Source: a virus | IMG/VR virus record: IMGVR_UViG_3300008050_000022 | Location: 1 to 64,000 of that record | Strand: one strand, 5' to 3' | DNA length: 64,000 bases | Shown: positions 387-30,235 of the stretch, one piece after another | How positions within the stretch are numbered: position 1 is the stretch's first letter | Layout of the letters: the number at the start of each line of letters is the position of its first letter | Translations under genes and position numbers: made by a program | Notes under the pieces: model-generated | The model's input: only the letters and a program-made list of their open reading frames with translations | Told to the model about the DNA's origin: nothing | Database searches by the model: none

Positions 387-1550
387 CTAGAAGATGAAGA
401 CTTCGGGGAACACGCCGCCAGTGGCGATCTTGTTGTTCGTGATCTCGAGCGCGTCCTCGGCACTCGGGATACGCACACCGAAGCCGATATCCGTGGCACC
501 GACCGTGATGGAGCCGGAGTAGAGCTCGAGCTTGGCGACGGCCGAGATGTTGCCGAAGCCCATCCCGATGTCTTCCCAGCTCTGCCACATGATCCGGTTG
601 GCCACCTTGTCGATGTAGAACTTGGTGTCGTTCAGGATGTAGAAGTACCCGAAGAACTCCGGCGCGGCGAAGATGTAGACGTTGCCGTCGCGCAGGATGT
701 TGTTCTTGATCGTGCGGATGACCTTCATCCCCATGACCTGCGAGTACTTGTAGCCGTCGACCACGGTCTCCGACTGCACCTGCGAACCCATGTCCTCCGT
801 GGTCCAGGTCAGGATGTCCGACCAGTCGCTCTCCGTGATCAGCATCCGCTCGGCCTGCAGCCGCTTCTGGATGAGGATCTTGAAGAGGTTGACGAAGTCA
901 GGACGCTGCACCGCACGAACCACGAAGTCGTCAGCAGCGGCGGCCAGGGCCAGGATGCCCTTGACCTTGCCACCACGGAGAAGACCCGTAGCTGCATCGA
1001 CGTCAAGGCCACCCAGGGCGACACCGGCGTTGACGTTGGTGCGGTTGAAGGGGACGGCGAGACCACCGTTGACCTCCGTCTGCATGAACTCGACCATCGA
1101 CTCGAGGTGGATCGTGAACTCGCGGTCCTCGATCTCCTGGATGTCCTTGCCCGAGTTGTCCTCGATCACCTTGGTGATCGGCATGCGGTAGGCCAGCAGC
1201 TCCTGCTCCACCTTCTCGAACTTCTCGCTCGAGATTGTGAAGAAGGCGATGGCGAATCGCGGGGCGTCGATGTAGCGAGCCTCGGGCTCGCCACGGAAGC
1301 CCATGCTCATCGCACGGCTCTGCGGCTCGACCTCTTCGATGCGGATCAGGGTGTCGTGGTTGAGAGACACCTGGCAGTCGGAGGGATCGATCGAGCGAGC
1401 GTTCATCACCTTGCGGCAATACGCTTCCTCTCGAAGGTGGTCACGGATGAACTCGCCTCCGTAGGCGGCCAGCTTGGTGCGGCCCTCGGAAGTTCCAGCC
1501 TCCTCGAAGAAGGTTTCGTTCATCACTCTGGATGCGGCGCTGTCGTACAT
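387..1550 (-). CDS. Major capsid protein (HK97-like fold, inferred)
   Basis: 387 aa, strong SD (AGAAAGGAG), strong GC3 bias, last gene of the protease-scaffold-decoration series; KDIQEIEDREF helix and C-terminal WEDIGMGFGN..AVAK typical of HK97-type capsids. Confidence 0.8.
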   Translation of the reverse strand: MYDSAASRVMNETFFEEAGTSEGRTKLAAYGGEFIRDHLREEAYCRKVMNARSIDPSDCQVSLNHDTLIRIEEVEPQSRAMSMGFRGEPEARYIDAPRFAIAFFTISSEKFEKVEQELLAYRMPITKVIEDNSGKDIQEIEDREFTIHLESMVEFMQTEVNGGLAVPFNRTNVNAGVALGGLDVDAATGLLRGGKVKGILALAAAADDFVVRAVQRPDFVNLFKILIQKRLQAERMLITESDWSDILTWTTEDMGSQVQSETVVDGYKYSQVMGMKVIRTIKNNILRDGNVYIFAAPEFFGYFYILNDTKFYIDKVANRIMWQSWEDIGMGFGNISAVAKLELYSGSITVGATDIGFGVRIPSAEDALEITNNKIATGGVFPEVFIF

Positions 1551-5328: not shown

Positions 5329-7224
5329 CTACACTAGTACTTGGATCGCTGCCCTCACTTCAGAGGGATCGGCGACGGGATGCATGGAATCGTTGCTAAA
5401 CGACCCTGGGCCATCTTGCCCAGTAGTGTCAGCGTTGATCAACCCTCTTCTTGCCTCCGCCGAGATGTAGGCCGTTTTGAGGTAGACGTAAGGTGCTACC
5501 TGGGCCAACACCTCGAGGGGCGAGGCGGTGTGGGAGGACGATTGCTTAATTCCTGCCTGGGAGTCAAGCGTGTCCTGTCTATAGAGCGCCTTTCGGAGCT
5601 CTGGACTGTCGAGGGATTCTTGAATGTGGGGGAGTGCGAGCTCTACCCCTTCCCGGTACGCAGCGTAGCCAGAAGCCAACTTGTCTAGCAGCGGACTGGA
5701 TCTCGGAGTCCAGGATCTCTTCTGTCGAGGAGGGGCCTGGAAGATCATGGTGATCCGCCGCTTCATGACTGGCGGGGCCATCGATCTGGATTCTACATGC
5801 CCCAACAAGGACCGGACCAGATCCATGATCCTACTCTGTGGCATCCCTAGATCTAGCGGCTCTTCCCGGCAACTGCACGACTGATCGAACACTGTGCCTT
5901 CTCGCCGGAAGTGATCTGCCTGACGGCCCATGCCTGCGTGCCGAAGCGCTACGTCCTGGAACTCGTGAGGCTTCAGGATGATCCCTGCCCTCGAGGGGGC
6001 AGCCAAGGCGTCACTCAAAGAGCGGGAACGCGAGAGTCTCCGTAGAGATCTGTCCGGTAGGTCGGGCTCGTGGTCCTCGAGCCGCTTCATCACCTTGTCC
6101 GGTCCGCCGGGAAGACGCTTGATCATCTCACTGAACTTGATCGCAGCCCTCTTGTTTCGCAACTGTTCAGTTGCGGCTACAGCAGCGTCACGGAAATTGT
6201 CTCGAGCTGCAGCTTCCTTAGCCAGATCCATAACAGAGATACGTGCCAGGGGAGGCAAGAGGTTCAGCACCTCCGGCTGCTCCCTCACGAATTCGCGTAC
6301 CTTGCTCTGTACTTCTGGGCGATCCCTCTTGGAAAGGAGCTCCTCCGGCATCCTGTTCAGGATCTCCGATGCCCGCTTTTCCCCGTAGAAGAGCTCACCG
6401 CGTTCTGCAGAAGGCATCGCGATGCCTCCAGGAGAGAACACCCAGGATCGCGTCTGATTGTGCGCCAGCTTGGCCATGACCATGGCAGTTCGATCAGCTC
6501 CGATGATCACGAAACTGTCGTCGAAGAAGTTGGGGTAGTCGTTGTGAACGGCGCAGACAGACCCGTCGTCCAGGACCTTGTTCATCCCGAAGCGAGGATC
6601 TTTGTTGTTGACGTGCTTGCAGTAGCTCGCCTTGGTCTTCGCCAAGTTCCCACACTGCGTGCATCGATCGTACGGAACTCGACAGCCCATCGAGGTAGGC
6701 GGGAAGATCCCCTCCAGAATCTTCCGAACTAGGGGCATGGCCCCCTGCCGCTCACACAGGTCGTGGTTCAGGTCGAAGATCGTCTCGACCCGGTGCATCC
6801 TGGGATTCCAGGAAGCCAGGATGATCCTCCCCAGTGTCTTGCTGGGATCCTTGTTCTGATGATGCTGGAAGATGTGAGCGTTGTAGAAGGTCGGGTACCC
6901 GAACCGGATACCTCTCGCAGCTGACGCCCTGCCCTCGACATCCCACGGAGAGATGGAGGCCATCTTCTCGTGGCCGTTCAGCAAGCCGGCTTCAGGGAAC
7001 GTGTCCCCGTTGACGTTGCTGCCGTAGTACTCGAAGGACCCTAGAGCGTTGTTCAGGACGTAGGTGTGTCCTTGTTCCGGCTCCATCCGCTCGATGAACC
7101 CCTTCACCTCATCCGACAAGGTGTCCGCCCCAGCCATCTTGGCCAAGGGGTACCTTTCCGGGATCAAGTGGGTGAAGGCGCTACCGCTCTCCGACCCCTC
7201 GAAGTGGAGGAGCTTCTCCATCAT
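5329..7224 (-). CDS. Prohead (capsid maturation) protease with Zn-finger
   Basis: N-x-N-G-D-x-F motif, HIFQHH (candidate catalytic His), TSMGC (candidate catalytic Ser) followed by CTQCGN...CKH; upstream of scaffold and capsid genes. Confidence 0.7.
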   Translation of the reverse strand: MMEKLLHFEGSESGSAFTHLIPERYPLAKMAGADTLSDEVKGFIERMEPEQGHTYVLNNALGSFEYYGSNVNGDTFPEAGLLNGHEKMASISPWDVEGRASAARGIRFGYPTFYNAHIFQHHQNKDPSKTLGRIILASWNPRMHRVETIFDLNHDLCERQGAMPLVRKILEGIFPPTSMGCRVPYDRCTQCGNLAKTKASYCKHVNNKDPRFGMNKVLDDGSVCAVHNDYPNFFDDSFVIIGADRTAMVMAKLAHNQTRSWVFSPGGIAMPSAERGELFYGEKRASEILNRMPEELLSKRDRPEVQSKVREFVREQPEVLNLLPPLARISVMDLAKEAAARDNFRDAAVAATEQLRNKRAAIKFSEMIKRLPGGPDKVMKRLEDHEPDLPDRSLRRLSRSRSLSDALAAPSRAGIILKPHEFQDVALRHAGMGRQADHFRREGTVFDQSCSCREEPLDLGMPQSRIMDLVRSLLGHVESRSMAPPVMKRRITMIFQAPPRQKRSWTPRSSPLLDKLASGYAAYREGVELALPHIQESLDSPELRKALYRQDTLDSQAGIKQSSSHTASPLEVLAQVAPYVYLKTAYISAEARRGLINADTTGQDGPGSFSNDSMHPVADPSEVRAAIQVLV

Positions 7225-7759: not shown

Positions 7760-7998
7760 TAGTAGATTCCTGTTGTTGATGGGCCGTGTAGAGGATTGGG
7801 CCGTTTGTGTCGAGGAAGGGCCTGCCGACCCTGAGTGATCGCAGCAATCCGAGGATTGATCGCCTGGTAGTTCTTCTTCAAGGCCTTGCCGCCCAGGTAC
7901 GCGGCACCGCCCCCAACCATCACATGTAGCGGGTGGTTGACTGCCCAGCGAAGAGCAGATGCCTCCTTGATGAAGGCGGACCAGGAAGCTGGACTCAC
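7759..7998 (-). CDS. Small protein with KEAS leader and a Gly-rich helix
   Basis: MSPASWSAFIKEASA...VMVGGGAAYLGGKALKK; coupled to both neighbours. Confidence 0.6.
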   Translation of the reverse strand: MSPASWSAFIKEASALRWAVNHPLHVMVGGGAAYLGGKALKKNYQAINPRIAAITQGRQALPRHKRPNPLHGPSTTGIY

Positions 7999-13601: not shown

Positions 13602-14476
13602 GCTCCCTCCGCCTTCCCGGAGCCGCTGTAGTTGCCTTCACCGGCCAGCTGCCTGAGCTCGGGCATGCCGTCCTCCTCATCGACCTCCATGATGAACCGC
13701 TCGAACTGCTCTGCGGCTCCCGCAGTCACAGCACCGTGGTCCTTGAGGGAGTCGGATACTCCTCGGATCTCCCGAGAAAGCTCGGCCAGCATACGTACAG
13801 ACGAGCCATCCGTCGGCTGCGTCTCCGCCTCAATGTAGCGGAAGAAGAGGGACTGCTGGATGTGCTGAAGCATCCGTGCGGTGGAGATGGTCGTTCTCAG
13901 ACCTAGACGATGGAGAGCGAGATTAGATCCGCCCTGAACAACGAGAGCTCTCTGATCTCGGTTCCCCAACCACTCGACCCACTCCTGCACCGGCATGCGA
14001 TCAGGGTTGAAGAAGTAGTGTCTGAATGCCTGGATCGTAGCGATGTCCACTACACCGGAGCCATGCTTGGACTCCAGGACGGTGGCCAACCTCCCTGCTG
14101 TGACGAATCCGAGAATGCCTATCTCGAGGTCATGACGGATTCGAGGAGCTGCCAGCCACCCTAGGGCTCGAGAAGCTGCCTCCTCAGAGACGTGTAGCTC
14201 CGAGATCTGCAGGCCCTTCCAGTACAGCCGGTTCTTGGGGTCGCTCTTGTTGGAAGGGAGGTAGACCTTGGGGCGGTTGCGGGCTGACCTGACCAGGTCC
14301 ATCTCCCCAGCCAGACTGTCGGTGTCTACCGGCAGCAGAGAGAACCCGTTCAGGTGCTTGTGAACCAGGTCAGGGCCGTAGCCCTCCCCCTCCCCAAGGC
14401 TAAGCAGGTACCGAATGAAGAACCTGGACGGGTGCTTCTCTACGATGATCCCGTCTTGCGCTCCCAAGTCCCTCAT
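13598..14476 (-). CDS. Hypothetical helical protein
   Basis: About 292 aa; TGATG coupling to the upstream gene. Confidence 0.65.
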   Translation of the reverse strand: MRDLGAQDGIIVEKHPSRFFIRYLLSLGEGEGYGPDLVHKHLNGFSLLPVDTDSLAGEMDLVRSARNRPKVYLPSNKSDPKNRLYWKGLQISELHVSEEAASRALGWLAAPRIRHDLEIGILGFVTAGRLATVLESKHGSGVVDIATIQAFRHYFFNPDRMPVQEWVEWLGNRDQRALVVQGGSNLALHRLGLRTTISTARMLQHIQQSLFFRYIEAETQPTDGSSVRMLAELSREIRGVSDSLKDHGAVTAGAAEQFERFIMEVDEEDGMPELRQLAGEGNYSGSGKAEGA

Positions 14477-16755
14477 CAAGCCACCTGAGGCGCCTCGGCG
14501 TTCAAGCCTGTCTGCGCCAGAATCTTGAGCTGCTGGACCGTCTCTTCCAGAGCGAAGAGCGATCTCCGAACCGCGCCCTCCGAGACGGGGCTGAGCCCCA
14601 CCCTAGCAGCGAAGAGGATGTCACCGAGCTTGGTGACCGCTTCCTCGAGCTCCGGCAAGTAGCCGATGTACATCTGCACGTTCTCAGGACGCAGGAAGTT
14701 CAGGCCGAGGATCTTGTCCACGGTGTCCGGATCGTCAATCTCCAGAGCTTCCTTCACCAGGCAGACTCGGGTAGCGAATAGGTCCGGGAACATCGTACCG
14801 ACCTGAGCCAGCGCCTCCTTGATCCTGCCTCCTACCTCGCCTGCCATGGTGATGGGGCGGATGGGGCGGAAGGTAACGGGGCCGTGTCGCTGACACCACG
14901 CCAGCTTCTTGAGTGCGTAGCCTGGCTCGACGCCCATCGCTCCCAGCAGGAACAGGGCATCTGCCTCCTTGACCTGCTTGTGCGACATCGGGCCGAAGTC
15001 CAGGAGCTGAGGCCCTCGGAGCGTGTACTGCCCAGAGCTGTCCCCGACCACCTCGACGTAGTTCCTGGCGAGGTTGGCCCTCTTCTCGATGGTGCGGGGA
15101 TTGTCCCCCACCTTCGCCATCTTCTCTCCGACGGGGCAGAAGCGGAAGTGCGAGGGGACCGCGAACCGGTCCTCGGCGAGCTTTGTGGGGGAGTGAATCC
15201 CCTTCACGATCTCGAGAGAGGCGGTCTTGCCCAGGTCAGACCGAACGTAGACTTCAGTACGGCCTTCGATGTCTCCCATACCCGTCACCGTGAAGGGGAT
15301 GGTGGCCGAAGCCGTCTTGGGATCCACCAGGAACCCTCGACCACGCATCTGGGCCGAGTGGGCGTAGGTGTCTTCGATGTTGGCACTGATCTGAGCAGCA
15401 CCTGCGATCTTCTGCTGCAGGCAGTACCCGCCAGCGATCACATGGGCCATCTTGGTGCCTAGGACAGTGCCGTCCAGGTCCATCACACGGGTGAACACCC
15501 CTGCGAGCTTGGTCCTCTGGCCGCTGGGATCCCACACCGACCACATGCCGGGCTCGTTCACGATAGTGGCGGTCTTCTCGAAGGGGTCGTCCGTCACCAG
15601 AGGGTCGCGGACGACAGTGATGGCCTTGCCAGAGGCCATCTTCATGACGTCTTCTCCTGCCACATTCCGAGCTCTCTCGCTAGAGACGTGCTCGATGATG
15701 GGCCGGAAGGCGTGGGCCGAGGCAGCCTTCATCACGAAGCCGCCGTCAGCCTTGCGAGCGATCTGAACCACCGTCGGCTCGATCTCCCCTAGAGGGTCCG
15801 CCGAAGCCAGCTTCTCTTGGGCCTCGGGGTTCGACAGAGCGCCGAGCAGGTACCTGACCGGAGCATGGCGATCTACGTGCCACGCCACAGCCTCATCATC
15901 TAGTGCATTGGCCAGCTTGGTCTTGTCGGCCGGGTTGACGAACGCGTTGGCGAGGGACTCGCACAGGAACGCCTTCTTCTGCGTCAGACCGGGCCTCCAT
16001 CCTGGGATAGGAGTGCGCTGCTTCAGTGGGGCCTTGCCTTTCTGGCGGGCCTTTACCCTCTTTGCAGCAGCTGCAGTCTCGGGAGTCATCCGAAGACCTG
16101 CGGCCTTCTTCCGCAGCTCCCTCTCCAGCTTCTTCTCTACTGCCTCTCGAACGTCCTTGTTGGCGGCTACCCCACCACCGCCAGCAGTGCCCAGAACCCA
16201 CGGGTTCTTGATCGCGTCCTTCGCAGCCAGGAACCCCGCCCTCCGGAAAGCAGCCTGCTTCAGCGCACCGGGTCCGCCCCCTGTACCCATGCCCGCAGTA
16301 CCGTGGGACGGCGGGTACATGTCCTTGGCGATGGAAGCGTCCGGTGGGGCCTTGGCGGCGATGTCGAACATCTCGGTCGAGTGCAGAGCCTCTTCCACCC
16401 GCTTCTGAGTCAGTGGGTAGACGGTGTTCTCCCTCATGAAGAGATCGAACGGCAGCAGCTGCCAGTCCTTGATGATCACCGGCACACGCAAGTAGGGAAC
16501 CGGACGAGGGCCTGCCTGCTCCTGCAGACTTCTCTCCGTCGGCACCTTCGCTGCTATGAAGCCGAAGCCGTAACCCTGCGATGCATCCACCTTCGTGACG
16601 TGCACAGAGAGCTCGTAGTTGGCGATGTACGGAACCTGCTGCACGAGGGCCTGGAGGATCACCTCCGGCCAACGGTCTACTGCTCCCGTCATCTTGGTGA
16701 GAGGAACAGCGACCTTCTCGAATCGCAAGATCTTCGGCTGTTCGAAGAGGTCCAT
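14476..16755 (-). CDS. Large virion head protein with KxA-delimited basic inserts
   Basis: 759 aa; EKVA leader, KQAA/KKAA/KKAF inserts, KLAS, KMAS, KTAT, KEAL; SD AGGAG. Confidence 0.65.
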   Translation of the reverse strand: MDLFEQPKILRFEKVAVPLTKMTGAVDRWPEVILQALVQQVPYIANYELSVHVTKVDASQGYGFGFIAAKVPTERSLQEQAGPRPVPYLRVPVIIKDWQLLPFDLFMRENTVYPLTQKRVEEALHSTEMFDIAAKAPPDASIAKDMYPPSHGTAGMGTGGGPGALKQAAFRRAGFLAAKDAIKNPWVLGTAGGGGVAANKDVREAVEKKLERELRKKAAGLRMTPETAAAAKRVKARQKGKAPLKQRTPIPGWRPGLTQKKAFLCESLANAFVNPADKTKLANALDDEAVAWHVDRHAPVRYLLGALSNPEAQEKLASADPLGEIEPTVVQIARKADGGFVMKAASAHAFRPIIEHVSSERARNVAGEDVMKMASGKAITVVRDPLVTDDPFEKTATIVNEPGMWSVWDPSGQRTKLAGVFTRVMDLDGTVLGTKMAHVIAGGYCLQQKIAGAAQISANIEDTYAHSAQMRGRGFLVDPKTASATIPFTVTGMGDIEGRTEVYVRSDLGKTASLEIVKGIHSPTKLAEDRFAVPSHFRFCPVGEKMAKVGDNPRTIEKRANLARNYVEVVGDSSGQYTLRGPQLLDFGPMSHKQVKEADALFLLGAMGVEPGYALKKLAWCQRHGPVTFRPIRPITMAGEVGGRIKEALAQVGTMFPDLFATRVCLVKEALEIDDPDTVDKILGLNFLRPENVQMYIGYLPELEEAVTKLGDILFAARVGLSPVSEGAVRRSLFALEETVQQLKILAQTGLNAEAPQVA

Positions 16756-20911: not shown

Positions 20912-23900
20912 TCAGTAGTTGTACGGCTCCTTCCCGGGAGGCTTACCGAACTCCTTTCCGAACGCGATGCCTGGCACAGGGTGAAGCCCGTGCAGGTTAC
21001 TCTCCCACCCCTGGGCGGAGCCCTCCAGGATCGTGCCCTTCAGCTTCTGGTACTGCAACCGAGCCATCCAGTCTTCCTGCATCGCCAGAGGAACTTCGTT
21101 GATGCCCTTGAGGATCGGCTTGTGGAGCGCCGGCTTCTGGCCCAGCTTAGCGGCCTTCCGGTTCTTGGCCGACAGCATAGTTGCTGGGACGATGTCGCCT
21201 CGCATGTACCCCGACTCTCCGGGGTCGCGGACTTCGGTCAGGTTCGCAACGGCTCGGACCACGACTTCCATGTTCTTCCGCTTGACCCCCATCTCCTTGT
21301 ACGCGCCATGCATCTCGTCGGTCAGGTAGTTCCTGACCCTCTCCATGCCGGCCACTTCCAGAAGATCTCGAGGGTTGACCATGCCAGAGCTCAGGGGCTG
21401 CCCCGCCGTCACCTTCAAGTTACCTCCCCGACTCTTGATCAGTGCCAGGTTCTCCCCGAGCTGCCTGTTGCCGGGAATGTAGTGCTCCTGCTCCTTCTCG
21501 TGGCCGTGCCGATCTCGGCCAGCCACGTTGACTCGCCAACCTCCAGCGGGATCCTTCTTGATGCCTCGACTGTTGATGGTGCCGGTGAGCCCTGAGATCG
21601 TCGCAGAACCTCGCAGGTTCCTCGGCATGGTCAAGAGCTTCTGGAGCTTGGTGAAGTCATCCATCTTGTCGCCCTTGGCCTCGACGACACCTCCTGTATG
21701 GAACTTCCTCATGGAGAGCTGCGTAGCAGGTTCCCCAACTCCTTGAGCTGCAATGATGCCGAGGTTCGTACCGGGAGACGGGAGCTGCCCCGAGACGTCC
21801 ACTCCGTAGCACTTGGAGCAGAGCCCCTCCCCATGCTCACACTTGAGCGGAGAACGTACGGAGATCTTCCCCGCCTTAGCGTTCCTCAGCTTGGTCAGTA
21901 CGTCTGGGGTGAGCAGCGTGCCTGAAGGAATCTTCCCTCCCCGAACCTTGATGTCCTGCGCTGCGTAGCGGTCTTGGATCTCGGGATCGTTGACGTCCAG
22001 AGAGATACCGCGACGGGTGCCGCAATCCTCGTCCACTACCACCTGGTTCATGGTGGAGCTGACGATGATCTTAGTCAGGCCGCCAGGCTCACTGGTTCCC
22101 TTCACCTTGGCCAGGGTGCCCATGCGAGCTCCAGACAGGGATGCCCAGTACTCTGCGGTACTCAGTCCCTCAGAGTAGCTCTTCTTCAAGGGGATCGGGA
22201 CTGCCTTGCCCGTGTCGTCTGCTACCAGCACTGGGGCAACTGCGATCTGCTTGAACTGATCCCAGTTACCTCGAGCTCCTGACGAGACCATCTCGAAGAC
22301 CTTGTTGTCGCTCTTCGAGAGCTTGGCCTTGCCTCGCGCATCGATCTTGGGAACTACCTTCATGTACGCCTTCACGATGGCATCGTTCCGGGACATGCCT
22401 CCCTTGCGAAGCGCGGCTACCTCCTTATCCGCTTCCGCGAAGATGGGGTCCTTCACGTCCTTGTGGACCAAGAAGTCCTTGAGCCCTACAGAGAAGACGT
22501 TGTCGTAGGTCTGCTGGTTGCCTAGCTGGTTCAGCTTGTTGACGGACTTGGCGAATACGTCACTGTCCCCCTTAGCCAGTGACGACAAGATCCCCGTCAG
22601 CCCCTTCTTGTCCAGCTTCAGCGACTTGTCACTCAGTACGCGAGCACGCTCTTCCGAGCCCTCAGGCAGGGCGTCGGATAGGAGAAGTCTTCCAGCCGTG
22701 GTAGCTGCGGTGGCAGCAGTCTTCTCTCGGAGACCTCCTACGGAGATCTGATCACTGACCGAGATAGTTCCGTCCTTCAGGGCCTTCAGAGCATCCTTCT
22801 TGTTCGCAAAACGCTTGCCCGTACGCTTACCTATCTGACTCAGCTGGTAGACCCCGAGCTGCGACTCCTGCCGAGGAATGTGCATCAGGGCACCACTAGC
22901 GGGATTCAACAGATGCTTCGAGGGCATCATGCCCTTAGCCTCTAACACCGCCTCCTGAGTCATGGGAACGAAGATGCCCATCTTGTCGCCGTCGAAATCT
23001 GCGTTGTACCCCGCAGTGACTAGCGGGTGGATCTGAATTGCTTTGCCCGAGACGATCTTAGGCTTGAACGCCATGACTCCGTGTCGATGTAGCACGGGAT
23101 CTCGTTTCATGATCACGGGACGGTTTGCCGCCACCTGCTCCAACGCCTTGTCGGCGATGGCCTTATTCTCTTTGATGGCTTTCTGTGCCTTCAGGGGGGT
23201 GTAGCCGAAGCCCTTGACGAGCTCTCGCACTACGAAGGGCTTCATCATCTCCATAGCGGCCTTGCGAGGGATGCCCACCTCATCCAGCCCCATGGACTGC
23301 TCGGGGATGATGGTGGATCGCATCGACAAGTCCTGTCGGCGACCGATGATCTTGCTCTGGAAGTAGCCGTACTTGGGCTGCGTACCCGAGATCGCCTCCA
23401 TCACTCCTCGACGATGCCGACCCTGCAGGTCAGACCCCGTCAGGGTCAGGGCCCTGAGCCCGTCGTACAGACTCGCCCGCATCGGCTGCCTCATGGACTC
23501 GGGGATCCCCTTGTCTGCCTTGAGCTCACGAAGCTTCTTATCCGACAAGGCGATGTCCTTGTACAGGTGGTTGAGATCCTCGGTGTTGAGGTCCCCGTTG
23601 TCCATCACGGTGACGGGACGCATGGACGGGGGGAGTACCGGGACTGCCTTAGTGGTGTACGCCTCCGTGGGAGACATCTTCGCGTCGACTAGGGCCTGGA
23701 GGTACCTGACTCGCTTACGAGCCTTGCTCAACTGGTCCTTCCGTGCCGTCTTCAGATCCTTCTTCGCCTGAGCGAGCTCGGTCTTGGGATCGATCTTCGC
23801 CAAAGCATTGACGACGGCAGTGGGGCCCGACGCGTCGCCGATGGTCTTGGTCCCTGCGATCACTCCGTTCAACTGCCCCTGCTTCAACCCAAGGATGCCG

Positions 23901-26900
23901 CTGATTGCCTTCTCGAAGGTCGGGTTCGGCAGCGGTTCGGACAGCTCCAGATGTGACCACTTCTTGCCATCAGTACCACCAGTCAGCTTGTTGTCGAACA
24001 AGCCTCCCTTTTCGGGGCGGAGGTCCTTGCCTCGCAGCATCCTACCGCCGTTGGGGAGAGCTCCTGCACTTAGCTCCCGCACCTGCTTGTCGGTTAGGGG
24101 TCGCAAGGTCTGCGTAGACCCGTTCTTGTCTACGTTGACTCCCATCACCTTGAGGTAGCTGGTGAACTTGTCGTAGGTGAAGGGAATCTGCGGCGGAGGG
24201 ATGGTCGCCCCCTCCTGCAGACGGGTCCACAGCTCGTCGTTTCGATCCGACTTCAGCGTGGCCATCTCTCTGATGTTGTGTTTGGCCCCGTGCGAGAGCA
24301 TCGCGTTCAGGCCCAACGCTCCGATGGACTGCGCCCCTGTACTTGACTTGGGGATCCCGTCCATGGTGTAGGGGTTGCCCGCTCCACCACCTCGAGGACT
24401 CATGCTCTTGCTGACCTTGTGCTTGAGCTTGAAGATGTACTGTTCGCCGTTCAGCACCTTGCCGAGTACGCGGCCTGTACCTGGGTCTCGAACATCCTCC
24501 TGGTCAGACAGGCCGTGAGCCTTCAAATCCCTCATCACCTTCCTGGTGTAATCCGGCTCGCTCGGGTCGAAGTTGTCTACGACGTACGGCTTGCCTGTCT
24601 TCCGAGCGATCTTCCCGGCTGCGGTCTCTAGCACCTGCCCCAAATTGATGCGGCTGGGGATACCTGCCGGGTTCATGGCGACCTCTAGAGGCTTCCCGTC
24701 CGGAAGCACGACCATCTCGTGATCAGGAATGACTGTAGAGATGATCCCCTTGTTGCCGTGACGTCCCACCAGCTTGTCGCCGACCTGAGCAGGCTCCTCG
24801 GTCTTTACGTGGACCTCTACACCTCGAGAGGTCCGAGCTACCCGAGAGACTGTGCCCTGGTAGCCCTTGTCCCAGACCACCGCCCGGTTTCGGTGATCCT
24901 TGACCATGGACTTCTTCAGGTTCCGAAGCTTCTTCTGCTCGGTGGAGATGTCCTCCCTCTGCAGCTTCGCTACCAGGACGTCCCCCTCCTCGACTCGAGT
25001 ACCTGGCTTGATGATCCCCTCATCATCGAGCTTGTCCCACTGCTCCTTGTTCAGGAAGTCCGAAGAGACGTGGGCTCGGAACTTCTTCTTACTCAGTACC
25101 GTCTGCTTGTCGATGCCGGTCTTGGGCCGATACATGTGCTCGGACGTCAGCTTCTTTGCAGCCGTCTCGGAGATGACGATACCGTCCTCGAAGTTGTAGC
25201 CCTTGAAGGGCATGTACCCGACTCGAAGGTTCTTACCTAGCGCGAACTCCCCTCCCTTGGTGAAGTTCGTATCCGCTAGGAGCTCCCCCTTCTTCACCTT
25301 CTGCCCCACCTTGGCGGTTGTGTCCGCCTTGATGAATGCGTCGTCCTGGTTCAAGGGGAAGTCGTTGTAGATCTGAACTTCGTGAATCTTGCCCTTGGCA
25401 TCCTTCACGTTGATCGAGTCTTCGTCGATGGAGACCACCGTCCCGTGAACGGGAGACGCGTGAGAGTTGAACGCGCCCATCACCTTCTCGAAGGTGACGT
25501 TCTTGTTCCCTGTCGCCGACTGCACCAAGGGAGCCTCTCGATGCTTCAGTCCTACAGCCTGTTCCTGCATCCGCGAAGCCGTCATGGCTCGGTTGCTCTG
25601 GTTGTTCTGGAGGAACGGGATCAGGTTCGTCGGCAGGGAGTACATCCCCTTGGTGGAGACCATCACGTGGGTGACGTCTCCGTAGGGGCGGGCCTCGATC
25701 TCGTTACTCTTGGAGGCTACGGTCACCTCCTTGCCCTTTGGAAGAGGCCTCCCACCCTTCCAGTCCACCTGGTCCGGGAACGCCACCACAGCTGCGTCGA
25801 ACTGGGCAGGGGACAGCTCTTCCAGCTTCCCGGTCTTCCGGTTGTACGCCTTGGTGAAGAGCTCCTTGCCTTTTTTCCTGGCGCCTAGAGGCAGCTGCAG
25901 CGTGATGCCTGTCTTCTCCCCTTCCGGAGTGGGGATGGGATCGATGAACCCCAGGTGACTGGGATTGATCCGGACAGCGTCCTCTGGCACGGACTGAATG
26001 TCCCCAATACCGCCAGGGCCCATGATGGTTGTGCGCATGTGCCCCGAGACGAAGTCCAGCGGGTTCGTCTGCGTGGGCATGGGGGCTAGAGCTGTAGAGA
26101 AGAAGGACTTGAGCGGCTTGTTGAACACTGCGGGGCTCACTACGTCCCGAACACTGTCCTTGACGTCCACCGTCTGCTTGAGTCTGCGGGTGATGTCCCA
26201 CGTACCCCTCTTGAGTCGATCTGCCAGGTGATCTTCAGCCGACAGCAGGTCCTTGAAGATCAAAGACTCTCGATCGTCCGCCTTCACCTTGCCTCTGGCC
26301 AGATCCAGCAGCTTGCCAGACGAGCGGAGCATGGCCTCCCCGTTGACCTCCGCGTACTCCTTGCCCAACGTGACCTTCGTGCTGTCTGGGCGGAGCTTGG
26401 CGGTGCCGAAGATCTCTCCTGCTCGTAGCCGGGCTTCTGGCAATGTCTTCGCGGTCTTGCCAGACGTCTTGGCCAGCAGCTTGTTCAAGCTCTGCAGCTG
26501 CTTGGCCTCTCCTCCGTACTGCTTCACGGAGGAGTCGTAGATGTCCTTGCCCCACAACTTCCTGATCTCGGCGTCAGATCTGCCCAGTGCTTTGAGTACT
26601 GGGTACAGCCCGATGTCTCGGGTGCCATCTACCTCGACCTGAAACTTCCGAGTCTTCGGATCGAAGTACGTGTTGAAGCGGGAAGCCTTCGAGCCTTCCC
26701 ACCTCTCGAGGTTCCAGTGAGCGTTGAGCTCCCCGGCCTCGTTCTCTCGGTGGTACGCACCTGCCTTGAGACGAAACTGGTTCTCTATCTGCCTCTCACG
26801 GCCGTCCACGATGTACGAGTAGCGCCTCGTGATCTTGGGAATGCGGGCTACTGTGATGACCTGTCGGTCGATCTCCTTGCCCGTCTTCTTGTCCTTGAGT

Positions 26901-27115
26901 GAGATCTCTGCCTTGAGCGGGACATCCCAGCTCCGGCCCTTCAACTTCGAGTCCTGCTGCGACTTGATGTCGTCGAGGCTCTTCGAGTCGTCTACCCAGA
27001 CCTTGTGCATCTCCAAAGTGCGGTGACTGCCCTCGAAGGGGAAGTGCGAGGAGACGGACTCCACTGCTCGAGTCTTCAAGGATTCGAACGTGCTCTCGGG
27101 ATCCAGCTGCGCCAT
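20912..27115 (-). CDS. DNA-directed RNA polymerase, fused beta + beta-prime, single chain (probably virion-associated)
   Basis: Beta motifs TPEG, NRAM..RMQEQAV, GYNFEDG, GDKLVGRHGNKG, MNPAGIPSR; beta-prime motifs RDPVLHR, YNADFDGD, SGARG, GEPATQLSMRKFH, RSPLKC..C..CYG; no stop between them. Confidence 0.95.
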   Translation of the reverse strand: MAQLDPESTFESLKTRAVESVSSHFPFEGSHRTLEMHKVWVDDSKSLDDIKSQQDSKLKGRSWDVPLKAEISLKDKKTGKEIDRQVITVARIPKITRRYSYIVDGRERQIENQFRLKAGAYHRENEAGELNAHWNLERWEGSKASRFNTYFDPKTRKFQVEVDGTRDIGLYPVLKALGRSDAEIRKLWGKDIYDSSVKQYGGEAKQLQSLNKLLAKTSGKTAKTLPEARLRAGEIFGTAKLRPDSTKVTLGKEYAEVNGEAMLRSSGKLLDLARGKVKADDRESLIFKDLLSAEDHLADRLKRGTWDITRRLKQTVDVKDSVRDVVSPAVFNKPLKSFFSTALAPMPTQTNPLDFVSGHMRTTIMGPGGIGDIQSVPEDAVRINPSHLGFIDPIPTPEGEKTGITLQLPLGARKKGKELFTKAYNRKTGKLEELSPAQFDAAVVAFPDQVDWKGGRPLPKGKEVTVASKSNEIEARPYGDVTHVMVSTKGMYSLPTNLIPFLQNNQSNRAMTASRMQEQAVGLKHREAPLVQSATGNKNVTFEKVMGAFNSHASPVHGTVVSIDEDSINVKDAKGKIHEVQIYNDFPLNQDDAFIKADTTAKVGQKVKKGELLADTNFTKGGEFALGKNLRVGYMPFKGYNFEDGIVISETAAKKLTSEHMYRPKTGIDKQTVLSKKKFRAHVSSDFLNKEQWDKLDDEGIIKPGTRVEEGDVLVAKLQREDISTEQKKLRNLKKSMVKDHRNRAVVWDKGYQGTVSRVARTSRGVEVHVKTEEPAQVGDKLVGRHGNKGIISTVIPDHEMVVLPDGKPLEVAMNPAGIPSRINLGQVLETAAGKIARKTGKPYVVDNFDPSEPDYTRKVMRDLKAHGLSDQEDVRDPGTGRVLGKVLNGEQYIFKLKHKVSKSMSPRGGGAGNPYTMDGIPKSSTGAQSIGALGLNAMLSHGAKHNIREMATLKSDRNDELWTRLQEGATIPPPQIPFTYDKFTSYLKVMGVNVDKNGSTQTLRPLTDKQVRELSAGALPNGGRMLRGKDLRPEKGGLFDNKLTGGTDGKKWSHLELSEPLPNPTFEKAISGILGLKQGQLNGVIAGTKTIGDASGPTAVVNALAKIDPKTELAQAKKDLKTARKDQLSKARKRVRYLQALVDAKMSPTEAYTTKAVPVLPPSMRPVTVMDNGDLNTEDLNHLYKDIALSDKKLRELKADKGIPESMRQPMRASLYDGLRALTLTGSDLQGRHRRGVMEAISGTQPKYGYFQSKIIGRRQDLSMRSTIIPEQSMGLDEVGIPRKAAMEMMKPFVVRELVKGFGYTPLKAQKAIKENKAIADKALEQVAANRPVIMKRDPVLHRHGVMAFKPKIVSGKAIQIHPLVTAGYNADFDGDKMGIFVPMTQEAVLEAKGMMPSKHLLNPASGALMHIPRQESQLGVYQLSQIGKRTGKRFANKKDALKALKDGTISVSDQISVGGLREKTAATAATTAGRLLLSDALPEGSEERARVLSDKSLKLDKKGLTGILSSLAKGDSDVFAKSVNKLNQLGNQQTYDNVFSVGLKDFLVHKDVKDPIFAEADKEVAALRKGGMSRNDAIVKAYMKVVPKIDARGKAKLSKSDNKVFEMVSSGARGNWDQFKQIAVAPVLVADDTGKAVPIPLKKSYSEGLSTAEYWASLSGARMGTLAKVKGTSEPGGLTKIIVSSTMNQVVVDEDCGTRRGISLDVNDPEIQDRYAAQDIKVRGGKIPSGTLLTPDVLTKLRNAKAGKISVRSPLKCEHGEGLCSKCYGVDVSGQLPSPGTNLGIIAAQGVGEPATQLSMRKFHTGGVVEAKGDKMDDFTKLQKLLTMPRNLRGSATISGLTGTINSRGIKKDPAGGWRVNVAGRDRHGHEKEQEHYIPGNRQLGENLALIKSRGGNLKVTAGQPLSSGMVNPRDLLEVAGMERVRNYLTDEMHGAYKEMGVKRKNMEVVVRAVANLTEVRDPGESGYMRGDIVPATMLSAKNRKAAKLGQKPALHKPILKGINEVPLAMQEDWMARLQYQKLKGTILEGSAQGWESNLHGLHPVPGIAFGKEFGKPPGKEPYNY

Positions 27116-27215
27116 GGGGGTAATCCTAGCTCTGTCTCACCGCTAATGGGCTGTCGTGGCCCGGTGACAATGTGCCTGCACTTGGAGAGATAAGGGAAGT
27201 AGAAAGGAAGTAACC

Positions 27216-27335
27216 ATGCCTGATGACAAGACCGAGACCTCCGCTTCCCAGTTCAGCTCCGCCATCGAGGAGGCCATCTACGGCTCCTCGACGGAGGAGG
27301 AGAAGAAGGAGCAGAAGGAAGAAGAGAAGGAGTAA
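27216..27335 (+). CDS. 39-aa acidic microprotein (not in ORF track)
   Basis: MPDDKTETSASQFSSAIEEAIYGSSTEEEKKEQKEEEKE; SD AGGAAG; follows ATAAG at 27190. Confidence 0.6.
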   Translation: MPDDKTETSASQFSSAIEEAIYGSSTEEEKKEQKEEEKE

Positions 27336-27337
27336 TC

Positions 27338-27448
27338 ATGCCGCTGATTTTCGGAGCCGGCGTCGCCCTCGGTCTCGTGCTCTATGCACGAGACCAGTGC
27401 TGGTTCGGCATGGCTCGAACCGCGAAGCACTTGAAGAAGGATGAGTGA
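27338..27448 (+). CDS. 36-aa membrane-anchored microprotein (not in ORF track)
   Basis: MPLIFGAGVALGLVLYARDQCWFGMARTAKHLKKDE; SD AGGAG; overlaps next ATG. Confidence 0.5.
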   Translation: MPLIFGAGVALGLVLYARDQCWFGMARTAKHLKKDE

Positions 27449-27800
27449 CGATCCCCGTCTAGCGTATTGCCCGCTCCTCGTCCTGGCTTCCGAGCCGGGG
27501 CGTAGGAGCGGGCGGTGCCCGGATCCCCGAGATTGCTCTTCTTGCATTTACTTCCAGGAGGTCCTTGGGGATCTGGGGGTACTGGAGGAGGTCCTCTGGA
27601 TCTGTCCTCGTTGCTTACCTACCGGTCGGCAAGCTAGCGGCTTCACGCTCCTGGGGCACTACTCAGAAGAAGAGTGCGCTGGGTGCGAGGGGATCAACAG
27701 TCTGTGCCAGGCCTGCGTAGAACCAGAGGCATTGTCCCAGAAACAGTGGAGGCACCTCGTAACCCACACAGCCTCGGAGATGTTCGAGAAGGAGGACTAG
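27441..27800 (+). CDS. Cys-rich hypothetical protein
   Basis: 119 aa with CSSC, CPRC, CAGC, CQAC. Confidence 0.6.
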   Translation: MSDDPRLAYCPLLVLASEPGRRSGRCPDPRDCSSCIYFQEVLGDLGVLEEVLWICPRCLPTGRQASGFTLLGHYSEEECAGCEGINSLCQACVEPEALSQKQWRHLVTHTASEMFEKED

Positions 27801-28141
27801 TGTACTGCGTCTACTGCCAGGAGGAGTTCACATGGGGAGAGGATGCGGTCGAAATCCGCCCAGGAAGGGTAGAGGTGAGCTCCCGAAGCCTGGGCCCTGC
27901 CTTCATCGCCGACGAGCCTGACGCAGAGCTCATCCATGTGGGCTGTATCGCCCACCACTTTCTACCCGATGAGGAAGGGGAGCTTCGAGAAGCTCTACGA
28001 GACGAGAAGATCGACGGAGTGGGGGAGCTGTTCCAGGAGTACCTGGACAAGGACGTCATCCCCCGTATCGAGGAGCCGGAAGCTCCGACACAGCCGGCAC
28101 CTAGAGGGGGGCGGAATCGCTTTCGCACACGTCGGAGGTAA
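27800..28141 (+). CDS. Zn-finger protein (CxxC...HxxC)
   Basis: GTG 27800 after SD GGAGG; YCVYC...IHVGC; Arg-rich tail. Confidence 0.6.
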   Translation: MYCVYCQEEFTWGEDAVEIRPGRVEVSSRSLGPAFIADEPDAELIHVGCIAHHFLPDEEGELREALRDEKIDGVGELFQEYLDKDVIPRIEEPEAPTQPAPRGGRNRFRTRRR

Positions 28142-28145
28142 CTGG

Positions 28146-28170
28146 TCGGCACACGGGCTCCGTGTGCCGA
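28146..28170. terminator. Hairpin between convergent genes
   Basis: TCGGCACACGG-GCT-CCGTGTGCCGA. Confidence 0.65.
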
Positions 28171-28243
28171 TCTACCTTCCCCTTCTGTTCTTATCTATCC
28201 CGTCCAGCATCTCCTGAAAGGAGTCAGCATTGCTCCTGTGGTA

Positions 28244-30235
28244 TCACACGATCGCCGAGCCTATGTCTCTCCTGGGCGGCTTCGCGCTCGGGAGAGGCGA
28301 CTGGTTCGGGTCCAAGGGGTCTCTCTTGCCTCCCTTGGACTGCATGATCTGAAGCACCAGGTTCAGGAAGTTGGGCTGCTCCATCTTCATCTTCTGCATC
28401 CACGCGTAGGCCGTCTTGGGGTCCTGCTTCAAGAGGTCGTCGAGCATCTTCGACACTCTCTTAGCTACGTACAACACGTTCATGCTCTGACCACCCGCTC
28501 CGCTAGCCTGGTTGATCGGAGACTGGGCCTCCTGCGGGACGCCCTCTGCTGGCGCCTGTCCTGCGTTCTCTGGGTTGATGCTGCCTCCCGAAGACGGAAG
28601 TGCTCCGGCTGCCTCAGGCGGCGGCTGGCGAGCCTCGGCGCCCGGTGTAGCCCCGCCCAGCATGTCCTGACTTGCGGCCTGCATGTACCGCTGTGAAACC
28701 TGCTGAGCCTCTGCCTGAGCAATGGCGGACGCAACCTGCATCCGTCGCTGATCGTCGGAAGTCCTCCTGCCCTCGCCACGCTTGAGCCTCTGCTCTGCTT
28801 CGTAGTTCTCTCCCAGCTCTCGGAGCAGGGTGTGATCAGAGACCTTGCCACCCTGGTTCATCTGGAAGTAGATCATCGTCCGCTGCAGGTCGTCGGCCAT
28901 CTTGAAGCGCTTGAACTTCTTATCGACCTTCGGCCAGCCCATGAAGGCGCCGATGCTGTCGAACACCCAGTTCGTCAGCCCCTGCGTCTCCGTGCGGTAG
29001 TTGATGAACTCGTTCTCGAGGTTCCGCATCGACACGTTGGTGCCGCTGTACGACATCCCGCCGAAGATGAACTCCTGTGGGGCATGCATGCCTGCGATGA
29101 TCTGCTCTGCCCAAACCCGATGCTCCTGGTGGAGCACCATGGCTCGGCCCTGCCCACCAATGACCTGGTGCCCCACGGGCATGGGGAGGATGGGCATGTA
29201 GTTGGGATCACGCCTCCACCGCTCGATCTCCTCTTCCATGGTGTTCTTCCACCCCTGGAGAGGCACCGTGGTGTAGGGATCAGAGGTGCCGGACCCGGCC
29301 TGCGGGAAGAGGACTCTCAGGGGCACGATATGCTCCCTGGCGATCATCTCCTGGCCCTTCTTGAGCACCTGCAGGTAGTACGAGTCCTTGAGCACTGGGA
29401 GGATGCGAGGCATCCCCCACCCCTGGTCCTTACCCGCTAGAGTCGGACGCTTGAGGTGGAACACCTGTCCAGGCGAGAACTTGAGGGCCAGCTTCTTCTT
29501 GGCGGCCTTCAAGAAGATCGAGGGGATCCTCTCGATGACGTGCGGCTTGCCTACCAGTAGCTGCCCTCGAGTACGAGCACTCATCTGATAGAAGTACTGG
29601 GTGTCTCCGGTCTCCTCGTTGTACTGGATGGAGATCCTCTCCGGATCCCACCGGATCAACCGGATCTGGTGAGGGGAGCGGAGAGCGATGTCCTTTTGCT
29701 TAGCCTTCCCTCGAGAGTTGCACTTCGGGCACTTGAGCACGAAGCCCATGTCCCGCCACTGGTAGAACTTCCTCAGCTGCTTGACGGGCTCACTGTGCTT
29801 GCAGTTGCCGCAGATCAGGTACTTGACGAAGGGGTAGTGGATCGAGACGAAGGCGTTGCCGTAGCACTGGTAGTCCAGCCCCGCCTCTACAAGGAACTGG
29901 CGGTACCCCAGGATGTCATCCTTGAGGTGAGCGTACTTGTCCTCTACTGCCGCGTGCTCGCTGGTGAACACCAGGTCGGTGATCGGGTACGACGCCATCT
30001 TGTAGCAGACGGCGTTCACCAGGGGATTCGTGAGGAAGTAGTACCGGCAGTACTTGAAGAGCTTCTTCATCGTGGCGGGCAAGTACGTATGCGCGCCGTC
30101 GAAGAAGGGGTTGGGGTAGGCCACGCCTCCCCGACCACTGGTGTTCATCCGGAGATCGCCGAAGCCCCCAGACCCCCCAGAGCCTAGACCATCGGTGATC
30201 CCTCCCGGGAAACTGCCGAAGTCGAAACCGGCCAT
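28244..30235 (-). CDS. Portal protein with a Zn-ribbon insertion
   Basis: YFLTNPLV..., DYQCYGNAF, FHLKRP..GWGMP motifs; Q/P-rich C-terminal tail; CGNC...CPKC insert. Confidence 0.75.
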   Translation of the reverse strand: MAGFDFGSFPGGITDGLGSGGSGGFGDLRMNTSGRGGVAYPNPFFDGAHTYLPATMKKLFKYCRYYFLTNPLVNAVCYKMASYPITDLVFTSEHAAVEDKYAHLKDDILGYRQFLVEAGLDYQCYGNAFVSIHYPFVKYLICGNCKHSEPVKQLRKFYQWRDMGFVLKCPKCNSRGKAKQKDIALRSPHQIRLIRWDPERISIQYNEETGDTQYFYQMSARTRGQLLVGKPHVIERIPSIFLKAAKKKLALKFSPGQVFHLKRPTLAGKDQGWGMPRILPVLKDSYYLQVLKKGQEMIAREHIVPLRVLFPQAGSGTSDPYTTVPLQGWKNTMEEEIERWRRDPNYMPILPMPVGHQVIGGQGRAMVLHQEHRVWAEQIIAGMHAPQEFIFGGMSYSGTNVSMRNLENEFINYRTETQGLTNWVFDSIGAFMGWPKVDKKFKRFKMADDLQRTMIYFQMNQGGKVSDHTLLRELGENYEAEQRLKRGEGRRTSDDQRRMQVASAIAQAEAQQVSQRYMQAASQDMLGGATPGAEARQPPPEAAGALPSSGGSINPENAGQAPAEGVPQEAQSPINQASGAGGQSMNVLYVAKRVSKMLDDLLKQDPKTAYAWMQKMKMEQPNFLNLVLQIMQSKGGKRDPLDPNQSPLPSAKPPRRDIGSAIV

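What the first reader, a model, noticed from the sequence alone, without database searches (positions are those of the whole stretch)
22680..22745. A KTAA site in the RNAP at a loop close to the natural beta-prime split point
Seen: ...ISVGGLREKTAATAATTAGRLLL, a low-complexity insert with a textbook EKTAA just before the conserved TT-x-GR motif. Known: cyanobacterial/plastid RpoC1 ends shortly after this TTPGR motif, so the chain tolerates a break nearby. Inference: the fused polymerase is cut by the prohead protease into roughly 1465 and 600 aa pieces, to activate it or to let it pass through the tail.
Basis: partly seen in the sequence, partly recalled or inferred. Interest (0 to 1): 0.7.

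Follow-up and report, generated by a model that had tools for sequence, protein, structure and literature searches.

The report
Candidate protease cut at RNAP subunit seam
A phage's single-chain RNA polymerase has a short floppy loop at the exact spot where related phages split the enzyme into two genes, and the loop carries the phage's head-maturation motif, so the head protease may cut the enzyme in two there, though no experiment shows this.

Summary
ISVGGLREKTAATAATTAGRLLL is residues 1457-1479 of a 2067-aa fused beta-beta' RNA polymerase (27115..20912, minus strand) that lies next to the portal gene of a 106-kb phage.

GLREKTAATAA is a real insert: 67 of 121 fused homologs have only 3 residues there. 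In AlphaFold2 models it is a flexible hairpin tip.

New here: cultured relatives (Salmonella phage Arash, Vibrio phage D181) and 13 metagenomic lineages encode the enzyme as two genes broken at this point. Both Arash chains were abundant in its virion proteome. The cyanobacterial split lies about 55-60 residues downstream.

47 of 54 insert-bearing homologs keep K-x-[A/G/S]-[A/S/G] 3-5 residues before TTxGR. K-x-A-[A/S/G] is 4-7 fold over-represented in head-core proteins of five phages. The putative protease's own N-terminus carries Phi-E-K-x-A-[S/A/G] (K 97%, A 98% of 100 homologs), and the polymerase has only this one copy.

Cleavage into about 1467 + 600 residues is therefore plausible (about 0.5) but unproven. 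Half the family lacks the insert, and the junction motif is looser than the head-protein motif.

The scan noted a similar fused polymerase in another genome, but not this site.

The parts
20912..27115 (-). Fused beta-beta' multisubunit RNA polymerase, 2067 aa (P0001)
   Evidence: ORF. Pfam Rpb2_6, Rpb2_3 and Rpb1 domains 1-5. E = 1e-67 to solved bacterial beta' chains.
22736..27115 (-). Module 1: beta plus the N-terminal part of beta' (residues 1-1460). Equivalent to Arash gp206; contains the catalytic NADFDGD at 1371-1377 (nt 22985-23005).
   Evidence: The last residue of gp206 (G1525) aligns with window G1460. Motif position.
22703..22735 (-). Seam insert GLREKTAATAA (residues 1461-1471)
   Evidence: Absent (3 residues only) in 67 of 121 fused homologs. 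The loop 1460-1469 is coil with mean pLDDT 67, between strands at pLDDT 91 and 92.
22712..22723 (-). K-T-A-A (residues 1465-1468): candidate prohead-protease recognition or cleavage motif
   Evidence: Only K-x-A-[ASG] in the protein. It matches the clade consensus Phi-E-K-x-A-[S/A/G]. A K-x-[ASG]-[ASG] motif is kept 3-5 residues before TTxGR in 47 of 54 inserts.
22688..22702 (-). TTAGR (residues 1472-1476): conserved TTxGR motif of beta', the first conserved element of module 2
   Evidence: Alignments to bacterial beta' and to 120 homologs. Split-gene relatives start 1-5 residues before it.
20915..22702 (-). Module 2: C-terminal part of beta' (residues 1472-2067). Equivalent to Arash gp216 and the D181 609-aa gene.
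   Evidence: gp216 residue T3 aligns with window T1469, E = 2e-54. D181 start.
28244..30235 (-). Portal protein, upstream neighbour of the polymerase gene (context)
   Evidence: E = 6e-85 to Arash portal gp204. The same portal-then-polymerase order is seen in Arash.
5329..7224 (-). Putative prohead protease, 631 aa (context). N-terminal PLAKMAG, then near-invariant H121/H122, S178, D186 and S237.
   Evidence: phrog_18299 'head maturation protease', E = 4.6e-6, residues 107-212. Conserved residues in 100 homologs. Leader consensus.
387..1550 (-). Major capsid protein (context) with K26-L-A-A at the end of a conserved N-terminal block
   Evidence: phrog_2522, E = 3e-14. The K-x-A column is kept in most of 127 homologs.

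Best explanation
The peptide is the seam between two modules of a phage RNA polymerase: beta plus the N-terminal part of beta' (residues 1-1460), and the C-terminal part of beta' (from residue 1472).

Shown: in the basal relatives these modules are separate genes, broken 1-5 residues before TTxGR. In the window's lineage they are fused. The seam carries an 11-residue flexible insert whose conserved core, L-R-E-K-T-A-A, is an exact copy of the clade's head-maturation motif Phi-E-K-x-A-[S/A/G].

Inferred: the polymerase is loaded into the prohead, as in phage Arash. There the head protease cuts at or next to K1465-T-A-A1468. This would restore a two-chain enzyme of about 1465-1467 and 600-602 residues, with a new N-terminus about 4 residues before TTxGR, like the N-termini of the naturally split genes. 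The purpose of the cut (ejection, assembly or activity) is unknown.
For: Gene-level split at this seam:
- Arash gp206 ends at window G1460, and gp216 residue T3 aligns with window T1469. The two genes lie 5 kb apart with opposite-strand genes between them.
- The D181 middle piece ends with a stop and a hairpin, and its 609-aa gene starts MAEVFAAGALRI. No intron was found in that gap.
- 13 more genes of about 600 aa start 1-5 residues before TTxGR.
- The split forms make one basal clade (support 0.999) that is sister to all fused forms.

Virion association: Arash gp206 was the most-detected virion protein (3516 spectra), gp216 gave 1210 and the sigma factor gp10 gave 467 (PMC10585845). Portal-polymerase synteny is shared with the window.

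The motif at the junction:
- It is the only K-x-A-[ASG] in 2067 aa.
- 47 of 54 inserts keep K-x-[ASG]-[ASG] at a near-constant distance from TTxGR, while the rest of the insert varies in length and sequence. It occurs in two separate fused clades. Three long inserts carry two copies about 20 residues apart.

The motif as a head feature:
- It is 4-7 fold over-represented in head-module proteins of the window, G001, G004, G007 and Arash. It is at expectation in plus-strand replication genes, and K-x-G, K-x-S and R-x-A are not enriched.
- The protease N-terminus has Phi 86%, E 56%, K 97%, A 98% and S/A/G 89% in 100 homologs.
- A K-Phi-A column ends the conserved MCP leader.

Accessibility: coil with pLDDT 67 in the window model, and below 50 in the L062 model.

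Precedent: the 201phi2-1 virion RNAP beta subunit is trimmed by its prohead protease, while the SPN3US homolog is not (PMC5694885).
Against: - There is no proteomic or biochemical evidence of cleavage in any insert-bearing phage.
- 67 of 121 fused homologs have no insert and no motif, so an intact chain is evidently functional.
- The junction column is looser than the head motif. About a quarter of inserts have G or S at the A position, but K-x-G and K-x-S are not enriched in head proteins. G004 has K-E-G-A at the junction while its own head proteins favour K-x-A and its MCP has K-V-A-E.
- Depletion of the motif elsewhere in the polymerases (observed/expected 0.60) is no stronger than for two control motifs (0.57 and 0.62).
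- The protease assignment rests on a weak PHROG hit plus conserved His/Ser. There is no Pfam family and no PDB sequence relative.
- The scissile bond is unknown.
- The Arash virion list also contains ligase, primase and ribonucleotide reductase, so carry-over of abundant non-structural proteins cannot be excluded.
Confidence: 0.5

Rival explanations
1. The insert is an uncut flexible linker left over from the gene fusion that joined the beta-beta'N and beta'C genes. Its small-residue pattern (K, then A/G/S) is kept for local structural reasons at the hairpin turn. Its likeness to the head motif is coincidental.
For: Split forms are basal and fused forms derived. Half the fused family works with a 3-residue junction. 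G and S are accepted at the A position at the junction but are not enriched in head proteins. No matching drift between the junction motif and the MCP leader was seen in the two genomes that could be paired.
Against: A neutral linker would not keep Phi-x-K-x-A-A at a fixed distance from TTxGR while everything around it varies, nor duplicate it in long inserts. Both models give the motif low confidence (pLDDT 67 and below 50), which argues against a packed structural role. The window's five residues EKTAA equal the clade consensus of the protease's own leader.
Confidence: 0.3
2. The motif is a docking or targeting signal rather than a cut site. It binds the protease or scaffold core so that the polymerase is loaded into proheads, like a capsid-targeting sequence placed internally, and the chain stays intact.
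For: The same motif sits in N-terminal leaders of several unrelated head proteins and of the protease itself. The polymerase has no obvious K-x-A leader at its own N-terminus (consensus).
Against: In the known systems the targeting leader and the cleavage site coincide (T4 internal proteins, from established knowledge; SPN3US propeptides, PMC10052503). Insert-less homologs would then need another loading route.
Confidence: 0.12
3. The match is chance low-complexity sequence with no function. TAATAATTA looks like a threefold T-A-A codon repeat.
For: The window-specific part, TAATAA, is not conserved even in the closest homologs, which have QAAATQ and TAGPTA.
Against: The K-x-A core is conserved in homologs that are only 30-70% identical over the 141-residue junction segment (45-82% over residues 1250-1750), and in a second clade.
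Confidence: 0.05

Closest known systems
Salmonella phage Arash RNA polymerase gp206 + gp216 (OQ632216; PMC10585845), and the same arrangement in Vibrio phages D181, D148 and D69
   Same: Same polymerase lineage (about 31% identity over about 90% of the length in D181; gp216 E = 2e-54). Same portal-then-polymerase gene order. Beta is fused to the N-terminal part of beta'. The boundary between the chains falls at the window's residues 1461-1468. Both Arash chains and a sigma factor were abundant in virion preparations.
   Different: In those phages the break is genetic: two genes, 5 kb apart in Arash. In the window the chain is continuous and carries an 11-residue insert with the K-T-A-A motif at the seam.
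phiKZ-type jumbo-phage virion RNA polymerases (phiKZ, 201phi2-1, SPN3US)
   Same: A multisubunit-type polymerase packaged in the head and ejected. Beta' is split after the double-psi beta-barrel (PMC7598289). One subunit (201phi2-1 beta) is trimmed by the prohead protease at a motif, while its SPN3US homolog is not, so processing varies among relatives (PMC5694885).
   Different: Those enzymes have four or five separately encoded chains. The known processing removes an N-terminal propeptide after Glu (S/A/G-x-E) and is not an internal cut at a subunit seam. The motif here is K-x-A.
Cyanobacterial and plastid rpoC1/rpoC2 (gamma / beta') split
   Same: A natural break of beta' in the region after the catalytic domain. 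It shows that this part of the enzyme tolerates discontinuity.
   Different: The position differs. Window residue 1467 aligns with gamma residue 566 of 626 (8gzg_D), so the cyanobacterial break is about 55-60 residues downstream of TTxGR, whereas the phage split is immediately upstream of it.
Motif-specific prohead proteases with capsid-targeting leaders (T4 gp21 at L/I-x-E; SPN3US gp245 at A-x-E)
   Same: A short motif recurs many times in scaffold and internal head proteins, at the end of N-terminal leaders and in the protease itself. The same pattern is seen here for K-x-A-[A/S/G].
   Different: The specificity differs (Lys/Ala rather than Glu) and is only inferred here. The window's protease has no Pfam family and only a weak PHROG match.
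Multisubunit-RNAP-encoding Caudovirales, 'mReC' (PMC7481178)
   Same: Metagenomic tailed phages with a bacterial-type beta/beta' polymerase that branches outside cellular clades. One relative found here comes from a similarly named sample series.
   Different: That paper reports T4-type capsid proteins (PF07068), whereas the window's MCP has no Pfam hit. It does not describe fusion, a seam or processing. Membership was not established.

Membership tests
Bacterial-type multisubunit RNA polymerase, beta-beta' fusion | Beta and beta' domain set in one chain | tested here: met
   Pfam Rpb2_6 (1.6e-57), Rpb2_3, and Rpb1 domains 1, 2, 3, 4 and 5 in order.
Bacterial-type multisubunit RNA polymerase, beta-beta' fusion | Catalytic NADFDGD motif and sequence homology to solved beta' chains | tested here: met
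   NADFDGD at residues 1371-1377. E = 1e-67 to 8i23_D and other beta' chains.
Arash/D181-type two-gene phage polymerase | Separate genes for beta-beta'N and beta'C, broken just before TTxGR | tested here: not met
   The window ORF is continuous across the seam. The seam aligns with the gene boundary of Arash and D181.
Cyanobacterial/plastid rpoC1-rpoC2 split site | Break at the same alignment position | tested here: not met
   Window residue 1467 aligns with gamma residue 566 of 626, so that break is about 55-60 residues downstream.
Prohead-protease substrate | Carries the protease's recognition motif | tested here: met
   L-R-E-K-T-A-A matches the consensus Phi-E-K-x-A-[S/A/G], which was derived from 48 head-protein sites and from the protease leader in 100 homologs. 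The motif itself is inferred and not experimentally defined.
Prohead-protease substrate | Motif lies in an accessible, flexible segment | tested here: met
   Coil with pLDDT 67 in the window model and below 50 in the L062 model, with flanks at 83-92. The beta part was not in either model, so burial in the whole enzyme was not assessed.
Prohead-protease substrate | Protein is present in the prohead or virion | not testable with these tools
   Inferred from the Arash virion proteome and from the gene's position next to the portal gene.
Prohead-protease substrate | Cleavage products observed | not testable with these tools
   No proteome exists for an insert-type phage. The Arash supplement holds no peptide-level data.
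Intein or intron insertion at the seam | Splicing element between the modules | tested here: not met
   The insert is only 11 residues. No Rfam family matches the D181 gap between the two genes; the only intron found lies at L002 4455-4735, in the beta part.
mReC phage lineage | T4-type capsid protein (PF07068) together with a deep-branching beta/beta' | tested here: inconclusive
   The window MCP has no Pfam hit at E 0.01. No tree including mReC sequences was built.

The most novel reading that the evidence does not exclude
Fusion followed by re-splitting. The two polymerase genes fused in evolution, and some lineages then placed (or kept) a head-protease site at the seam. The enzyme is made and loaded into the capsid as one chain and is cut back into the ancestral two chains during head maturation. 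This would be a post-translational equivalent of a gene split, and it may matter for threading a polymerase of about 230 kDa (estimate) through the tail.
Probability: 0.45. Interest if true: 0.7.

Novelty: new variant of a known kind. Interest (0 to 1): 0.55.

Why it matters
How large virion-packaged polymerases are loaded into capsids and passed through a narrow tail is an open question for phiKZ-type, N4-type and crAss-type phages.

This family offers a natural three-way comparison at one position of one enzyme: two genes, a fused chain with a candidate protease site, and a fused chain with no linker. A single virion proteome or gel would show whether an internal maturation cut replaces a gene split. 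It would also define the K-x-A specificity of an unclassified prohead-protease family found in many environmental phages of 100-220 kb.

If the site is not cut, the result is still useful. It marks a precise, repeatedly used permissive split or fusion point in beta', immediately before TTxGR.

Tried and rejected
1. Family-wide depletion of K-x-A-[ASG] in the polymerases, as a signature of protease exposure. Observed/expected was 0.60, but the controls Q.A[ASG] (0.62) and K.A[LIVM] (0.57) were just as low, so the test is not informative.

2. Matching drift between the junction motif and the MCP leader of the same genome. Only two genomes could be paired (G004 and G007). Both MCPs read K-Phi-A-E, whatever the junction motif (K-E-G-A or K-L-A-A), so there is no support.

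3. P0281 (594 aa, starts MAAPTKTTVGR) nests inside the insert-bearing clade and would be a gene split at the motif itself. It may be a gene call truncated at a contig edge and was not used as evidence.

4. An intron explanation for the D181 gap. Rfam finds a group I intron only at the other gap. No tRNA lies in the intergenic stretch.

5. Protease family assignment. There was no Pfam hit, no PDB sequence relative and no Pfam annotation on 120 homologs.

6. Peptide-level evidence from the Arash paper. The supplement is only a feature table.

7. The 201phi2-1 proteome paper (PMC2871425) is not held. Its result is cited through PMC5694885.

Full report
WHAT IS THERE

The window belongs to a 105,937-bp virus record. 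The minus-strand ORF 27115..20912 encodes a 2067-aa protein with the full domain set of bacterial beta followed by beta'. It has the catalytic NADFDGD at residues 1371-1377, and residues 1240-1740 match solved bacterial beta' chains at E = 1e-67.

The reported peptide is residues 1457-1479 (nt 22747..22679), and EKTAA is residues 1464-1468. The gene lies downstream of the portal gene (28244-30235; E = 6e-85 to Arash gp204). It is on the same strand as the terminase, the putative protease and the major capsid protein.

THE LOOP IS AN INSERT AT A SEAM

Among 121 fused homologs of about 2050-2110 aa:
- 67 have just three residues between the ..VG strand and TTxGR.
- 54 have 8-35 residues; the window has 11.

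Against bacterial beta' the site is a variable surface hairpin directly before TT[LV]GR, in the Rpb1 domain 3 ('pore 1') region.

Two AlphaFold2 models were made:
- Window beta' part (mean pLDDT 84.8): residues 1456-1459 and 1470-1473 are strands with block pLDDT 91 and 92. The ten residues between them are coil at pLDDT 67.
- An 18-residue insert from the other insert-bearing clade (L062): the stretch with the motif has pLDDT below 50.

RELATIVES ARE SPLIT EXACTLY HERE

- Salmonella phage Arash encodes the enzyme as gp206 (1525 aa, next to its portal gene) and gp216 (606 aa). The genes are 5 kb apart, with opposite-strand genes between them. The last residue of gp206 aligns with window G1460, and gp216 residue T3 aligns with T1469.
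- Vibrio phage D181 has the same break. Its middle piece ends ..NTPIKIVAMT, followed by a stop, a hairpin and small ORFs. Its 609-aa gene starts MAEVFAAGALRI. Rfam finds a group I intron only at a different gap.
- Thirteen further genes of about 600 aa, several on contigs of 85-198 kb, start 1-5 residues before TTxGR.
- In a tree of the C-terminal module rooted on four bacterial sequences, 15 of the 16 split forms, including Arash and D181, make one clade (0.999) that is sister to all fused forms (0.861). The sixteenth, the unverified P0281, nests among the fused forms. The insert occurs in two separate fused clades, the window's own (10 sequences) and a larger one (about 28).
- The cyanobacterial gamma/beta' break lies about 55-60 residues further downstream. 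The literature equates that break with the phiKZ-type split (PMC7598289).

IS THE POLYMERASE A VIRION PROTEIN?

This cannot be tested for the window. In Arash, gp206 was the most-detected protein of purified particles (3516 spectra, 128 unique peptides), gp216 gave 1210 spectra and the sigma factor gp10 gave 467 (PMC10585845). That list also includes ligase, primase and ribonucleotide reductase, so carry-over is possible. The polymerase's rank and its position beside the portal gene favour packaging.

IS K-x-A A HEAD-MATURATION MOTIF?

- In the window, K-x-A-[ASG] is over-represented in six head-module proteins. Examples are 8 observed against 1.0 expected, 10 against 1.5, and 6 against 0.6 in the putative protease, all with P <= 0.003 by shuffling. 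It is at expectation in plus-strand genes.
- The pattern replicates next to the capsid gene in Arash (gp220, gp223, gp225), G001, G004 and G007. It is specific: K-x-G, K-x-S and R-x-A are not enriched.
- The putative protease is supported by phrog_18299 at E = 4.6e-6 and by near-invariant H121/H122, S178, D186 and S237.
- Its N-terminus carries [L/F]-E-K-[T/V/L]-A-[S/A/G], with K in 97 and A in 98 of 100 homologs.
- Most capsid-protein homologs keep a K-Phi-A column at the end of a conserved N-terminal block, though the next residue is often E, D or Q.
- This is the pattern expected of a prohead-protease site, as with L/I-x-E in T4 (established knowledge) and A-x-E in SPN3US (PMC10052503). It remains an inference.

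THE JUNCTION MOTIF

- The polymerase has 205 lysines and one K-x-A-[ASG], located in the insert.
- L-R-E-K-T-A-A equals the clade consensus.
- 47 of 54 inserts keep K-x-[ASG]-[ASG] 3-5 residues before TTxGR, usually preceded by a hydrophobic residue, while the upstream part varies freely.
- Three long inserts carry two copies about 20 residues apart.
- A cut after K-x-A would leave about four residues before TTxGR, which is within the range of 1-5 seen in the split genes.

WHAT WEAKENS THE CLEAVAGE READING

- Half the fused family has no insert.
- About a quarter of the inserts have G or S at the A position, which head proteins do not favour. G004 shows exactly this mismatch.
- Motif depletion elsewhere in the polymerases is not distinctive.
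- The protease family is unclassified.
- Nothing shows a cut.

VERDICT

The seam is established. Cleavage is the best single explanation at about 0.5. The rivals are an uncut fusion linker (0.3), a docking signal without cleavage (0.12) and chance (0.05). The closest precedent for protease processing of a virion polymerase is removal of the N-terminal propeptide from 201phi2-1 beta, which its SPN3US homolog lacks (PMC5694885). An internal cut at an ancestral subunit boundary would be a new variant of that kind.

Noticed in passing
L002 4455-4735 (Vibrio phage D181, OZ196140): A group I intron (Rfam RF00028, 100.7 bits) followed by a homing-endonuclease gene interrupts the beta part of the D181 polymerase gene. 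Relative D69 matches in two pieces instead of three, so it may lack this interruption.
   Followed up: partly
homologs P0012, P0020, P0022, P0025, P0045, P0048, P0056, P0061, P0073 and others: Many fused polymerases of 2300-2800 aa carry intein or homing-endonuclease domains (PF14528, PF05204, PF03161, PF14890). Several relatives of the putative protease carry inteins too. Insertion sites were not mapped.
   Followed up: no
window 5329-7224 (-): The 631-aa putative protease has no Pfam family but conserves H121/H122, S178, D186, D235 and S237 in 100 homologs. Its C-terminal half holds four more K-x-A-[ASG] sites, as in protease-scaffold fusions. This looks like an unclassified prohead-protease family.
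   Followed up: partly
window head-core ORFs 2188-2550, 2560-4068, 5329-7224, 7995-8885, 14476-16755, 31840-34659: K-x-G-[ASG] is absent from these six proteins (0 observed, 5.6 expected). This is a depletion as marked as the K-x-A enrichment, and it is unexplained.
   Followed up: no
window 27116-28243: The 1.1-kb stretch between the portal and polymerase genes has no convincing minus-strand ORF. The longest frame is a plus-strand 155-aa ORF (27674-28141). Arash has a 92-aa gene (gp205) in the equivalent place.
   Followed up: no
L001 5923-5940 (Arash gp206 N-terminus): Arash gp206 begins M-P-K-S-A-S, so a K-x-A-S sits at residue 3. The only other K-x-A-[ASG] in the 2131 residues of the two Arash chains is at gp216 residue 464.
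   Followed up: no
homologs P0013, P0015, P0016 (junction inserts of 32-35 aa): These inserts carry two motifs (K-T-A-[A/S] and K-[E/Q]-A-[A/G]) flanking a W/R/G-rich segment of about 20 residues. If both were cut, a small peptide would be excised.
   Followed up: partly
window 387-1550 (-), MCP residues 10-30: The capsid protein's N-terminus has a conserved block, N-x-x-F...(E/D)-G-x-x-K-Phi-A, shared by more than 100 homologs down to about 30% identity, including Arash gp226 and the D181 MCP (GL[V/T]KEAGAAMS).
   Followed up: partly
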